The notes below the pieces were generated by a model. That model did not search any database and had not been told where the DNA came from. It saw only the letters and a list, made by a program, of their open reading frames with translations. The position numbers and the translations under genes are program-made. From contig JAJFTJ010000014.1 of the NCBI GenBank assembly GCA_021373015.1, positions 136,323 to 200,322 of the forward strand: a DNA stretch of 64,000 nucleotides. The letters are read 5' to 3'. Shown here piece by piece: positions 21,400-22,496 of the stretch (positions within the stretch are counted from its first letter, which is position 1; the number at the start of each line of letters is the position of its first letter). Source of the DNA: Nitrospiraceae bacterium. GTDB taxonomy: Bacteria > Nitrospirota > Thermodesulfovibrionia > Thermodesulfovibrionales > UBA1546.

Positions 21400-21654
21400 A
21401 GATATATAAAAGGACTAATGAAGATGTTAAATTTGGGATATTCCGCAATGCTGATGATGCAATAAATACTGTCCTTAAAAAACATATGCAAAAAAAAGCA
21501 GGCAATACCTTAAAATTCAAGACCTAACCCCCCATGATATTTGTCAAATTTTCTTGTCTTGCTCTATTGCTTTTCGTATGATATCAAGAAACCAGTTAAT
21601 AATATTGTTAAGCAGTTACTGAATCTATTCACATCTTAAAGGAGATTTTCTGCA

Positions 21655-22401
21655 ATGGACATTCCACGGATCTTCAACATCAGTGAAAGTGCTCACCGCA
21701 TCCATAACCCGTTCACACCCGAAAAACTCGCCACTCTCGGCGCTGCGCTGCGTCTGAAATCAGGGGACCGAGTGCTCGACCTCGGCAGCGGTTCGGGGGA
21801 GATGCTGTGCACCTGGGCACGCGATTACGGCATCACTGGCACTGGCATTGACATGAGCCAGTTGTTCACCGAGCAAGCGAAACTCCGTGCAAAAGAACTC
21901 GGCGTCGCGGATCAAGTAAAGTTCATCCATGGCGATGCTGCCGGCTATGTCTCTGAAGAGAAGGTTAGTATGGCAGCCTGTGTCGGTGCCACTTGGATCG
22001 GTGGGGGTTTTGCAGGCACTATCGAGCTTCTGACGCAGAGCCTGTGTGCTGGAGGGATCATCCTCATCGGCGAGCCCTACTGGCGGCAGTCACCGCCTAC
22101 GGAAGATGTTGCCAAGGGGTGTCTTGCCAACTCGATCTCCGACTTTCTCGCGCTTCCAGAGCTTCTGACCTCTTTCGGCCATCTCGGCTACAACGTCGTT
22201 GAAATGGTTCTGGCAGACCAAGACAGTTGGGACAGATACGAGGCGGCCAAATGGCTCACCATGCGCCGATGGCTTGAAGCCAATCCCGACGACGAGTTCG
22301 CGAAAGATGTTCGAGCCAAACTGACCTCTGAACCAGAGCGCTACGCCGCTTATACGCGTGAATACCTGGGCTGGGGTGTGTTTGCGCTGATGAAGCGGTG
22401 A
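21655..22401 (+). CDS. class I SAM-dependent methyltransferase (cassette-borne, compositionally foreign)
   Basis: It has SAM-binding motif I, VLDLGSGSGEM. An AGGAG RBS precedes the ATG. In hand-counted 60-nt samples G+C is 37/60 inside the ORF (21721-21780) and 19/60 in the flank (21421-21480). Confidence 0.85.
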   Translation: MDIPRIFNISESAHRIHNPFTPEKLATLGAALRLKSGDRVLDLGSGSGEMLCTWARDYGITGTGIDMSQLFTEQAKLRAKELGVADQVKFIHGDAAGYVSEEKVSMAACVGATWIGGGFAGTIELLTQSLCAGGIILIGEPYWRQSPPTEDVAKGCLANSISDFLALPELLTSFGHLGYNVVEMVLADQDSWDRYEAAKWLTMRRWLEANPDDEFAKDVRAKLTSEPERYAAYTREYLGWGVFALMKR

Positions 22402-22435
22402 TAAGGGGGACTCAGAAAGTGGGGGAAATCCGTCA

Positions 22436-22496
22436 TGCCTAATAACTCTTTTAAGCCGATGCCGCTTTGCAGCTCGGCTTAATTCAGGCGTTAAAC
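22436..22496 (+). mobile_element. integron attC (59-base-element) recombination site
   Basis: The sequence is tGCCTAATaactcttttAAGCCGAtgccgctttgcagcTCGGCTTaattcaggcGTTAAAC. It has an inverse-core-like left end, a perfect 7-bp L''/L' inverted repeat and a terminal GTTRRRY core (GTTAAAC). The layout and much of the sequence resemble the aadA-type attC as I remember it. It lies 35 nt after the methyltransferase stop. Confidence 0.65.

What the first reader, a model, noticed from the sequence alone, without database searches (positions are those of the whole stretch)
21607..22496. Integron-type gene cassette (foreign methyltransferase plus attC) with no integrase in the window
The methyltransferase ORF (21655-22401) is compositionally foreign: 37/60 G+C in a hand-counted line versus 19/60 in the flank. 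It is followed 35 nt later by a ~61-bp element with the anatomy of an integron attC site. That element has an inverse-core-like left end (GCCTAAT), a perfect internal inverted repeat (AAGCCGA...TCGGCTT) around a second imperfect stem, and a terminal GTTRRRY core (GTTAAAC, 22490-22496). The whole element is close to the aadA-type 59-base element as I remember it. A second GTTRRRY (GTTAAGC, 21607-21613) lies 42 nt before the ORF (47 nt from its first T), where the 5' cassette boundary would be. An attC-bearing cassette lying between two housekeeping genes without intI is unusual. It suggests either a degraded chromosomal integron or off-target cassette insertion.
Basis: partly seen in the sequence, partly recalled or inferred. 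Interest (0 to 1): 0.7.

Follow-up and report, generated by a model that had tools for sequence, protein, structure and literature searches.

The report
Stranded integron cassette carrying a methyltransferase
One mobile integron gene cassette, encoding a YjhP-type methyltransferase of unknown substrate, sits alone with no integrase between two housekeeping genes of an uncultured wastewater bacterium and is drifting towards being an ordinary resident gene; this is a clear natural example of a phenomenon already described and named (a "SALIN").

Summary
Window 21608-22490 is a genuine 883-bp integron gene cassette: a 47-nt leader with a ribosome-binding site, a 248-aa YjhP-family SAM methyltransferase, and an aadA-type attC at 22437-22496. 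The attC matches the aac(6')-IIa attC of clinical class 1 integrons at 52 of 60 positions. An attC covariance model trained only on unrelated attC types finds it as the single significant hit in 64 kb, on the correct strand (28 bits, E about 8e-4). Eighty metagenome contigs carry the same unit. Homology starts exactly at G|TTAGGC and ends exactly at the attC G|TT, the flanks are unrelated, some copies lie next to intI, and others are solo. The window has no intI and no second attC, so this is a SALIN. It most likely arose by integrase-mediated insertion at a genomic GTT (attG). The copy is old. Its substitutions are mostly GC-to-AT, the R'' triplet is AAT instead of AAC, one extrahelical base is lost, and the attC scores 23-28 bits below intact relatives. 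The ORF is intact (dN/dS 0.24). Both junctions are reproduced by a second assembler. A 24-nt duplicate of the priA 3' end brackets a larger 1.19-kb block and is unexplained. Verdict: a new member of a known kind, of moderate interest.

The parts
21586..21607 (+). Left half of the inferred genomic target (attG). The host sequence ...AACCAGTTAATAATATTG ends with the G of the crossover GTT.
   Evidence: Homology to the other cassette copies stops here. The sequence is AT-rich like the host. An independent assembler joins it to the CDF gene.
21607..21613 (+). 5' cassette junction GTTAAGC (crossover G21607|T21608). It is the decayed form of GTTAGGC.
   Evidence: In 49 of 76 other loci the shared leader begins exactly at GTTAGGC, with unrelated DNA upstream. 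The reverse complement of the cassette's own R'' (GCCTAAC) is GTTAGGC.
21608..22490 (+). The whole integron gene cassette, 883 bp.
   Evidence: Boundaries come from comparison with 80 metagenome loci. GC is 0.57 against 0.38 for the host.
21608..21654 (+). Cassette leader with ribosome-binding site AAGGAG 8 nt before the ATG. No promoter of its own is evident.
   Evidence: It aligns with the consensus leader at 41/48 positions, and the differences are almost all GC-to-AT.
21655..22401 (+). YjhP-family class I SAM-dependent methyltransferase, 248 aa, intact.
   Evidence: Pfam Methyltransf_25/31. PDB 5bp7 at 1e-142, 5epe at 8.5e-136, 1nkv (E. coli YjhP) at 1.5e-122, all full length. 92.1% nt identity to the consensus of 78 cassette copies, dN/dS 0.24.
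22402..22436 (+). 35-nt spacer between the stop codon and the attC, about 10 nt shorter than in the consensus cassette.
   Evidence: Consensus is TGAGGGGATTACCGGGCGACTCAGAAAGTGGGGAAAATCCAATCAT; the window has TAAGGGGGACTCAGAAAGTGGGGGAAATCCGTCAT.
22437..22496 (-). attC recombination site of the aadA type; the bottom strand is the folding and recombining strand. On the top strand: R'' GCCTAAT 22437-22443, L'' arm about 22451-22459, 3-nt loop, L' arm about 22474-22482, R' GTTAAAC 22490-22496. It is degraded.
   Evidence: 52/60 identical to the aac(6')-IIa attC. Model R1 scores it 28.3 bits, E 8e-4, on the minus strand; intact aadA-type sites score 51-57 bits. There are 7 substitutions against the cassette consensus, 6 of them GC-to-AT. 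The fold has one bulge instead of two and is weaker: -12.7 against -16.5 kcal/mol for a consensus attC at the same target.
22491..22515 (+). Right half of the inferred genomic target. Host sequence resumes with TTAAACACTCC...
   Evidence: Homology to the other copies ends at G|TT in 18 of 74 other loci, with unrelated DNA after it. An independent assembler joins it to priA.

Best explanation
This is a genuine integron gene cassette living alone in a chromosome, i.e. a SALIN. Shown: an 883-bp unit (leader, YjhP-type methyltransferase ORF, aadA-type attC) circulates widely in environmental bacteria. It occurs both inside integron arrays next to intI and as solo copies. One copy lies between a cation-efflux gene and priA in this 38%-GC wastewater bacterium, with no integrase and no other attC in 64 kb. 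Inferred: an integron integrase supplied in trans, for example from a transient plasmid-borne integron, recombined the folded bottom strand of the circular cassette's attC with a double-stranded genomic site AATAATATTG|TTAAACACTCC (an attG, consensus GWT). That reaction places the cassette between G and TT without any target duplication. Inferred from substitution patterns: the insertion is old. The copy has drifted towards the host's AT-rich composition. Its attC has lost the conserved AAC of R'' and one of the two extrahelical bases, so it is probably poorly mobilisable or no longer mobilisable. The ORF has stayed intact under purifying selection and this allele appears in RNA, so the host probably uses the gene, transcribed from host sequence upstream because cassettes carry no promoter.
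For: attC identity: 52/60 to the aac(6')-IIa attC, and about 290 plasmid records hit through the attC alone. The consensus attC of this cassette is 55/56 identical to the aac(6')-IIa attC. Model R1, built from 23 attCs under 70% identical to the aadA type, gives one significant hit in the window, on the bottom strand (28.3 bits, E 8e-4). It scores untrained intact aadA-type sites at 51-57 bits and separates the strands. Cassette status: at least 577 relatives in metagenome contigs. The leader starts at GTTAGGC in 49/76 loci and a full attC ends at GTT in 18/74, with unrelated flanks whose GC ranges 0.36-0.67 while the gene stays near 0.60. IntI genes lie beside the cassette in L018 (first position after attI), L021, L039, L064 and L060. 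All 95 attC hits in the loci are co-oriented with the cassette. By context, 30 loci are arrays and 8 are solo-like, and the solo copies L015 and L036 sit among ordinary chromosomal genes. Solo status here: no IntI at E<=1 in the window, no other attC, and nothing in the upstream spacer. Mechanism precedent: SALIN and attG, 5'-GWT-3'. Age and decay: 40 strong-to-weak against 10 weak-to-strong changes relative to the consensus, where the other loci have medians of 15 and 13; GC3 is 0.63 against 0.72, with host GC3 0.32-0.38. Six of 7 attC changes and nearly all leader changes are GC-to-AT. Function retained: dN/dS 0.24, and a 204-nt metatranscriptome contig is 100% identical to this allele while every other locus differs by at least 13 nt in that stretch. 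Not a chimera: Logan contigs of the same run cross both junctions identically, with depths of 16.6 and 14.9 on the two sides and 16.3 for an allele-specific interior unitig.
Against: No empty site could be obtained. The host is seen only in one study, and the nearest genome found (PriA 45% identical) is not syntenic, so insertion at this exact place is inferred, not shown. The integrase that acted is unknown. An attI-like nature of the AT-rich target cannot be excluded; AT-rich sequence precedes G|TT at real attI sites such as L018. A 24-nt duplicate of the priA 3' end brackets a larger 1.19-kb block. IntI recombination does not produce such a duplication, so at least one further event shaped the locus, and the cassette may have arrived inside that block. 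Most window-versus-consensus differences are shared with some other copy and only 6 are private, so part of the AT drift may predate arrival here. Loss of extrahelical bases does not abolish recombination of aadA7-type sites (PMC5027507), so 'immobile' is a prediction. RNA evidence is a single contig; no transcript crosses a junction. Exact unitigs are missing for 21685-21758 in the DNA run.
Confidence: 0.72

Rival explanations
1. The cassette did not insert here by itself. A block of about 1.19 kb (AT-rich spacer, cassette, 72 bp, and a fresh priA 3' end) entered at the 3' end of priA. This could have happened by short-core site-specific integration of an element now reduced to this block. 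Alternatively, homology-facilitated illegitimate recombination with DNA from a relative could have done it, leaving the recipient's own last 24 nt of priA as a relic. In this reading the attC x attG event happened earlier, in the donor.
For: The direct repeat 21373-21396 / 22563-22586 matches at 20/24 with an exact 14-mer. An exact repeat of at least 14 nt occurs in 1.2% of shuffles of the 2-kb region, and a match of at least 20/24 to the priA terminus occurs in 0/200 shuffled windows. The left copy still reads ...NAAIDA* in frame, has stop codons upstream of it, and is followed by a hairpin abutting the CDF stop, as a compact convergent gene pair would look.
Against: No recombinase gene and no other mobile-element feature lies in the block. 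The spacer matches nothing in the plasmid collection or the 80 loci. The spacer's composition is host-like. The duplication could equally predate the cassette and be unrelated to it. The cassette boundaries inside the block are the canonical G|TT ones.
Confidence: 0.13
2. It is the last remnant of a chromosomal integron or cassette array (CALIN) whose integrase, attI and other cassettes have been deleted.
For: The AT-rich sequence just before G|TT resembles that at genuine attI sites such as L018, and resembles L020's flank at 17/21 positions. The copy is old enough for much else to have decayed. An RYYYAAC-like ACCTAAC lies 85 nt upstream of GTTAAGC.
Against: tblastn with three IntI proteins finds nothing in the 255-bp spacer above noise and nothing in 64 kb. 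The attC model scores the upstream spacer at 2.2 bits, E=2 in 309 nt. There is no second attC in the window on either strand. Only 255 bp separate the cassette from the CDF stop, and both neighbours are intact housekeeping genes.
Confidence: 0.1
3. It is an assembly chimera: a cassette abundant in the sample was wrongly joined to host contigs.
For: The gene body is covered by hundreds of variant unitigs at up to about 1900x summed depth in the same run. The Logan assembly breaks inside the gene at 21667 and 22300, and no exact unitig covers 21685-21758.
Against: Both junctions are crossed by long Logan contigs identical to the window, reaching 60 nt and 197 nt into cassette sequence that carries this copy's own variants (TTAAGC, GCCTAAT, AT-shifted leader). 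Depths are equal on both sides (16.6 and 14.9), and an interior allele-specific unitig has depth 16.3. The allele differs by about 8% from every other copy sampled.
Confidence: 0.03
4. It is an ordinary horizontally acquired gene whose downstream hairpin is just a transcription terminator, not an attC.
For: The hairpin folds only modestly better than shuffles (z about -2.8). Family members such as E. coli yjhP are ordinary operon genes with no attC.
Against: There is base-by-base homology to functional attCs. No T-run follows the hairpin, and the scan reports no terminator-like site at the attC. There is a strand-specific attC model hit, and the boundaries are shared with copies inside real integrons.
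Confidence: 0.01

Closest known systems
[quoted passage not shown]
   Same: One ORF plus one attC, no intI and no other attC nearby, ordinary chromosomal neighbours, crossover at a GWT triplet (GTT here), and no target duplication at the cassette ends.
   Different: This is a natural, old example in an uncultured low-GC environmental bacterium rather than E. coli or RefSeq isolates. The attC has decayed and the gene looks domesticated. The insertion event itself is inferred, and the right-hand attG motif CRGM at positions 6-9 is only half matched (CACT).
attC sites of the aadA / aac(6')-II / catB8 resistance cassettes of class 1 integrons
   Same: The same 60-nt architecture and nearly the same sequence. 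The consensus attC of this cassette is 55/56 identical to the aac(6')-IIa attC, and the window copy is 52/60 identical. There is a 3-nt terminal loop, and intact copies have the two extrahelical bases G and T separated by a 6-bp stem (PMC5027507).
   Different: The cargo is a methyltransferase of unknown substrate, not a resistance gene. No copy above 80% identity occurs in the plasmid collection. The window copy has AAT in place of the R'' AAC and only one bulged base.
CALIN / sedentary chromosomal integron arrays
   Same: The same cassette is a member of such arrays in other contigs (L013, L021, L024, L048, L057, L064).
   Different: In the window there is a single attC and no integrase, so neither definition is met.
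E. coli YjhP and PDB entries 1NKV, 5BP7, 5EPE (class I SAM-dependent methyltransferases, structural-genomics targets)
   Same: Full-length homologues of 248 aa (E 1e-122 to 1e-142) with the same GSGSG SAM-binding motif region.
   Different: E. coli yjhP is the third gene of the topAI-yjhQ-yjhP operon and has no cassette leader or attC. No substrate is known; a knockout study did not assign it an activity (PMC12096079).

Membership tests
Integron gene cassette (attC-bearing) | 3' core site R' = GTTRRRY, with the crossover between G and TT | tested here: met
   GTTAAAC at 22490-22496. In 18 other loci, homology ends exactly after GTT.
Integron gene cassette (attC-bearing) | Inverse core R'' = RYYYAAC with the conserved AAC triplet | tested here: not met
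   The window has GCCTAAT (22437-22443), a one-base C-to-T departure. Orthologous copies have GCCTAAC. Membership is therefore by descent, as a decayed member, not by strict motif.
Integron gene cassette (attC-bearing) | Imperfect hairpin on the bottom strand: R stem, unpaired spacer, L stem with extrahelical bases, and a variable loop | tested here: inconclusive
   The L stem (9 bp), 3-nt loop and unpaired spacers are present. Only one bulge (A) is found where intact copies have G and T, and the R stem is absent from the minimum-energy fold. The R stem is also lost for a consensus attC placed at this target.
Integron gene cassette (attC-bearing) | Significant hit to an attC covariance model on the strand matching gene orientation | tested here: met
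   My own model R1 (23 non-aadA attCs) gives 28.3 bits, E 8e-4, on the minus strand, the only hit below E 0.1 in 64 kb. Controls score 51-57 bits. IntegronFinder's own model could not be run.
Integron gene cassette (attC-bearing) | The same unit found as a discrete module in different contexts, including integron arrays beside intI | tested here: met
   30 array or intI contexts, with L018 the first cassette after attI.
SALIN | No integron integrase nearby | tested here: met
   tblastn with IntI1 and two environmental IntIs finds nothing at E<=1 in 64 kb. The rest of the genome is not available.
SALIN | A single attC, with no other attC in the neighbourhood | tested here: met
   R1 with filters off over the whole window gives one hit. 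The heuristic finds no canonical attC. The upstream spacer scores 2.2 bits.
attG insertion (IntI-mediated, off-target) | Crossover at a 5'-GWT-3' in double-stranded genomic DNA that is neither attC nor attI | tested here: inconclusive
   GTT is at both junctions and the target has no attC signal. An attI-like character of the AT-rich left half cannot be excluded.
attG insertion (IntI-mediated, off-target) | An empty site exists in genomes lacking the cassette | not testable with these tools
   The host occurs only in X1, X2 and X21 from one study, at too low depth outside X1. The only genome relative is not syntenic. The homologue database was switched off.
Complete integron / CALIN | intI with attI, or at least two attC sites in a cluster | tested here: not met
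YjhP-family class I SAM-dependent methyltransferase | Full-length sequence homology including the Rossmann-fold SAM-binding motif | tested here: met
   PDB 1nkv, 5bp7 and 5epe align over residues 1-248, including the motif VLDLGSGSGE. Pfam Methyltransf_25/31.
YjhP-family class I SAM-dependent methyltransferase | Methyltransferase activity and substrate | not testable with these tools
   No characterised member exists. NCBIfam gives only sub-threshold generic hits, and the literature calls yjhP uncharacterised.

The most novel reading that the evidence does not exclude
The 24-nt duplicated priA terminus marks the ends of a small non-autonomous integrative unit (about 1.19 kb) that targets the 3' end of priA and carries an integron cassette as cargo. 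That would be a second, integrase-independent vehicle for moving cassettes between chromosomes. More broadly, this YjhP-type cassette, whose attC is nearly identical to that of clinical aadA/aac(6')-II cassettes, may be repeatedly stranded and domesticated across many phyla, which would make it a traceable model of how cassettes become core genes.
Probability: 0.12. Interest if true: 0.6.

Novelty: new member of a known kind. Interest (0 to 1): 0.36.

Why it matters
The locus is a clean natural specimen of a route that was demonstrated mainly in the laboratory: an integron cassette leaving the integron and settling in a chromosome. Both junctions are defined to the base. Intact sister copies inside real integrons are available for comparison, and the signs of later decay (AT drift, a damaged attC, an ORF kept under selection) can be read directly. 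It also shows that the attC type carried by important clinical resistance cassettes (aadA, aac(6')-II, catB8) is shared almost base for base with a very widespread environmental cassette. That is relevant to the question of where those resistance cassettes were assembled. It does not reveal a new mechanism.

Tried and rejected
Rfam has no attC family, so nothing meaningful was found in the region or in the window. The large homologue database was switched off, so no protein-level census or neighbours by that route. An exact-sequence look-up of the methyltransferase found no record. The single genome-collection scan, run with PriA, gave only a 45%-identical, non-syntenic MAG and a 28% hit, so there was no empty site. 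Other runs from the same study hold the host too thinly to show an empty site or a junction. I searched for a relic integrase in the spacer and the whole window and found only noise. I searched for a relic attC upstream, prompted by the 17/21 similarity to L020's flank: 2.2 bits, rejected, and L020's flank turned out to be a short palindromic target. The spacer has no match in plasmids. RNA contigs across the junctions: none; only gene-internal fragments. E. coli yjhP as a possible fossil cassette: no leader and no attC. A first attempt to select training attCs with overly strict filters returned nothing and was redone. My heuristic attC finder misses the window's own site because it demands AAC; this was kept as evidence of the mutation, not of absence. 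I considered reading the missing R stem as decay and rejected that, because a consensus attC at this target also loses it.
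Full report
OBSERVATION. The ORF runs from 21655 to 22401 on the + strand (248 aa, ATG to TGA). GC is 0.52-0.58 across it, against 0.33-0.42 in the flanks and about 0.38 over the whole 64 kb. 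GTTAAGC is at 21607-21613. A 60-nt element at 22437-22496 starts with GCCTAAT, holds a perfect 9-bp inverted repeat (TTAAGCCGA / TCGGCTTAA) around a short second stem, and ends with GTTAAAC. The neighbours are a CDF cation-efflux gene (19966-21351, +) and priA (22566-24530, -).

IS THE 3' ELEMENT AN attC? Rfam has no attC family, so I used three other lines of evidence. (i) Homology. A blastn search against 72,556 plasmids returned about 290 records that match only the last ~62 nt of the query. These matches lie at the 3' ends of the aac(6')-IIa and aadA6 cassettes of class 1 integrons. The alignment shows 52/60 identity with the aac(6')-IIa attC, and the same architecture appears in the aadA1 and catB8 attCs. 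(ii) An independent covariance model. I harvested 23 attC sites under 70% identical to the aadA type from cassette arrays in related contigs and from a reference integron. I aligned them as bottom strands and imposed the canonical structure: R stem, L stem, and an extrahelical T column. The structure is 82.5% paired, against about 40% when the partners are slid, and 14 of 18 pairs show compensatory changes. The caveat is that the sites had been selected for pairing. The resulting model R1 scores intact aadA-type attCs it never saw at 51-57 bits on the bottom strand and 16-22 bits on the top strand. In the window, with filters off, it gives one significant hit: 22437-22496 on the minus strand, 28.3 bits, E about 8e-4. 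That is the correct strand for a +-oriented cassette. The next hit, a 34-nt palindrome at 15527, has E 0.33. (iii) Folding. The bottom strand folds better than all or nearly all shuffles (z about -2.8).

IS THE WHOLE UNIT A CASSETTE? A scan of metagenome contigs with the protein found at least 577 relatives. The best 80 (85-91% amino-acid identity) were fetched with their flanks. The gene is always about 0.60 GC, while the flanks range from 0.36 to 0.67. In 49 of 76 loci with enough upstream sequence, the shared leader GTTAGGC(A/C)GTGACCGAATCTATTCACACCC(G/A)TAAGGAGATTTTCTGCA-ATG begins exactly at GTTAGGC, and the DNA before it is unrelated between loci. In 18 of 74 loci the full aadA-type attC follows, and homology ends exactly after its GTT. 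GTTAGGC is the reverse complement of the cassette's own R'' (GCCTAAC), as expected for a circularisable cassette. IntI homologues (41-58% identical to IntI1 over the main aligned segments) lie beside the cassette in L018, L021, L039, L064 and L060. In L018 it is the first cassette after attI. R1 finds 95 attC sites in the 80 loci, and every one is co-oriented with the cassette. By context, 30 loci are arrays or lie next to intI. Eight have only the cassette's own attC. In 42 loci no attC passes threshold, although many of those keep the leader. The solo copies in L015 and L036 are flanked by ordinary chromosomal genes: MFS transporter, hemerythrin, FGE-sulfatase, ThiF, a PLP enzyme. So the window's unit, 21608-22490 (883 bp), is one copy of a very successful environmental cassette that exists at every stage from array member to stranded gene.

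SOLO STATUS IN THE WINDOW. tblastn with IntI1 and two environmental IntIs finds nothing in 64 kb at E<=1, and only noise in the 255-bp spacer between the CDF stop and the cassette. No second attC exists on either strand. I noticed that L020's upstream flank resembles the window's at 17/21 positions, so I tested the spacer for a relic attC. The best score was 2.2 bits (E = 2 in 309 nt). L020's flank is a short palindromic target, not an attC. The locus therefore meets the operational definition of a SALIN. Loot et al. counted 3,400 SALINs in 21,105 RefSeq genomes and explained them by IntI-catalysed insertion of cassettes at double-stranded genomic attG sites with the consensus 5'-GWT-3' (bioRxiv 10.1101/2022.09.11.507474). 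The junctions here give an inferred empty site of AATAATATTG|TTAAACACTCC.

AGE AND STATE OF THIS COPY. Against the consensus of 78 copies, the window gene is 92.1% identical, and its closest sampled copy is 91.7% identical. There are 40 strong-to-weak changes against 10 weak-to-strong; the other loci have medians of 15 and 13. GC3 is 0.63 against 0.72 for the consensus, and the host genes have GC3 of 0.32-0.38. Six of the 7 attC substitutions and nearly all the leader substitutions are also GC-to-AT, including TTAGGC to TTAAGC at the 5' end and GCCTAAC to GCCTAAT in R''. Intact attCs fold with an R stem and an L stem carrying the two canonical bulged bases, G and T, 6 bp apart (PMC5027507). 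The window site has a continuous 9-bp L stem, a single bulged A, and a weaker fold: -12.7 against -16.5 kcal/mol for a consensus attC placed at the same target. The missing R stem is partly a consequence of the target-derived half of R' and is not decay alone. The R1 score is 23-28 bits below that of intact relatives. Deleting the extrahelical bases does not abolish recombination of attC-aadA7, so I call the site degraded and probably poorly mobilisable, not dead. The ORF is intact with dN/dS of 0.24 against the consensus. A 204-nt contig from a metatranscriptome of the same study is 100% identical to this allele over 22104-22307, where every other sampled copy differs by at least 13 nt. The neighbouring host genes are not seen in those RNA runs, and no RNA contig crosses a junction. 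Only 6 substitutions are private to the window, so part of the drift may have occurred before arrival here.

CHIMERA CHECK. The window derives from a wastewater metagenome. Logan's independent assembly of run SRR15035646 contains one contig identical to the window from the CDF side up to 21667. It contains another identical from 22300 through the attC into priA. Depths are 16.6 and 14.9, and an allele-specific interior unitig has depth 16.3. The break lies inside the gene because hundreds of variant unitigs from other organisms share conserved cores there. Exact unitigs are missing only for 21685-21758 once the RNA contig is counted. A chimera is unlikely, but raw read pairs were not available.

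THE PROTEIN. It is a class I SAM-dependent methyltransferase of the YjhP family. It matches PDB 5bp7 (1e-142), 5epe (8.5e-136) and 1nkv, which is E. coli YjhP (1.5e-122), all over the full length. Pfam and NCBIfam give only generic methyltransferase matches. yjhP is still described as uncharacterised (PMC12096079). E. coli yjhP (73% nucleotide identity) sits in the topAI-yjhQ-yjhP operon and has no leader or attC relic. The family therefore exists both as ordinary genes and as a cassette. What the cassette does for its hosts is unknown.

AN UNEXPLAINED EXTRA. A 24-nt direct repeat (21373-21396 and 22563-22586; 20/24 with an exact 14-mer) brackets 1,166 bp consisting of a 211-bp AT-rich spacer, the cassette, and 72 bp. 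The right copy is the true end of priA (...NIAIDA*). The left copy still reads ...NAAIDA*, has stop codons upstream of it, and is followed by a hairpin that abuts the CDF stop. An exact repeat this long occurs in 1.2% of shuffles of the 2-kb region. A 20/24 match to the priA terminus occurs in 0 of 200 shuffled windows. IntI recombination does not duplicate target sequence, so a second event shaped the locus. Candidates are a short-core integration at the priA terminus, or homology-facilitated illegitimate recombination that brought in a new priA end together with the spacer and perhaps the cassette. Without relatives I cannot decide, so I carry it as a rival for how the cassette arrived (0.13) and as the basis of the most novel reading.

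COMPARISON AND VERDICT. The locus works like, and qualifies as, a SALIN generated through the attG route. Its attC belongs by descent to the aadA / aac(6')-II / catB8 attC type. The cassette consensus is 55/56 identical to the aac(6')-IIa attC, although this copy fails the strict RYYYAAC motif by one base. It is neither a complete integron nor a CALIN. The finding is correct and the anatomy is unusually clear, but the kind of element and its mechanism are already described. I rate it a new member of a known kind, with interest of about 0.36. Its value is as a natural, datable example of cassette stranding and domestication, and as a link between a clinical attC type and an abundant environmental cassette.

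Noticed in passing
window 21373-21396 and 22563-22586 (with hairpin 21355-21370): A 24-nt direct repeat (20/24, exact 14-mer ACGCATCAATCGCA). The right copy is the last 7 codons plus stop of priA. The left copy is an in-frame relic (...NAAIDA*) next to a hairpin that abuts the CDF stop. The pair brackets a 1.19-kb block containing the cassette. It is statistically unusual (1.2% of shuffles; 0/200 for the terminus match) and is not explained by integron recombination.
   Followed up: partly
L039, L042, L048, L057, L082 (just after the methyltransferase stop); L012, L024, L032, L035, L041, L054: The same ORF and leader occur with different 3' ends. In one group, other attC cores are joined directly after the shared GCCTAAC, giving hybrid attCs. 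In the other, a longer conserved 3' region (TGCGTTGGCGCATCCGGCGGATCGTCAACGG...) precedes an attC about 140 nt downstream (e.g. L024 3196-3255). This suggests attC swapping at the R'' box.
   Followed up: no
L023, L042, L074, L080: Other copies of the cassette show the same strong GC-to-AT drift (L023, L042, L074: excess of 28-36 strong-to-weak changes). L080 shows a smaller excess (19) and a visibly decayed attC (GCCTATTAAATC...GGCATT). The window is therefore not the only stranded, drifting copy.
   Followed up: partly
L015 5001-5851; L036 5001-5848: Solo copies of the same cassette with an intact attC lie among ordinary chromosomal genes. L036's inferred target, GGCCTAAACATTG|TTAGGCC, is itself an imperfect palindrome resembling a simple recombination site.
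   Followed up: partly
window 21632-22441, in runs X1-X42: About 10-13% of the sampled 31-mers of the region occur in every listed metagenome and metatranscriptome (soil, sediment, groundwater, sludge, marine). Summed unitig depths reach the hundreds to about 1900. The gene family is very abundant and has invariant cores (e.g. 21768-21818, 22228-22322).
   Followed up: partly
window 22104-22307: A 204-nt contig from a metatranscriptome of the same study (X6) is 100% identical to this allele, which differs by at least 13 nt from all 78 other copies in that stretch. The neighbouring host genes are not detected in the RNA runs.
   Followed up: partly
window 21554-21582 (+): A promoter-like TTGTCT-17-TATGAT lies 25 nt upstream of the cassette boundary and could drive the promoterless cassette. 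The number of such sites in the region is not above chance.
   Followed up: no
window 15527-15560: A 34-nt palindrome GCATAAC...GTTATGC inside the radical-SAM ORF gives a weak attC-model score (16 bits, E 0.33). It is too short and has no L stem, so it is not an attC.
   Followed up: yes
L088 (E. coli NZ_AP040168.1) 1630-3248: The E. coli homologue yjhP is the last gene of topAI-yjhQ-yjhP (a toxin-antitoxin operon reported to respond to ribosome-targeting antibiotics). It carries no cassette leader or attC. This may be a functional hint for the family but was not pursued.
   Followed up: partly
whole window: There are no tRNA genes and no Rfam family at gathering threshold in 64 kb. The nearest genome-collection relative by PriA is only 45% identical (a Thermodesulfovibrionales MAG), so the host is a poorly sampled lineage.
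   Followed up: partly
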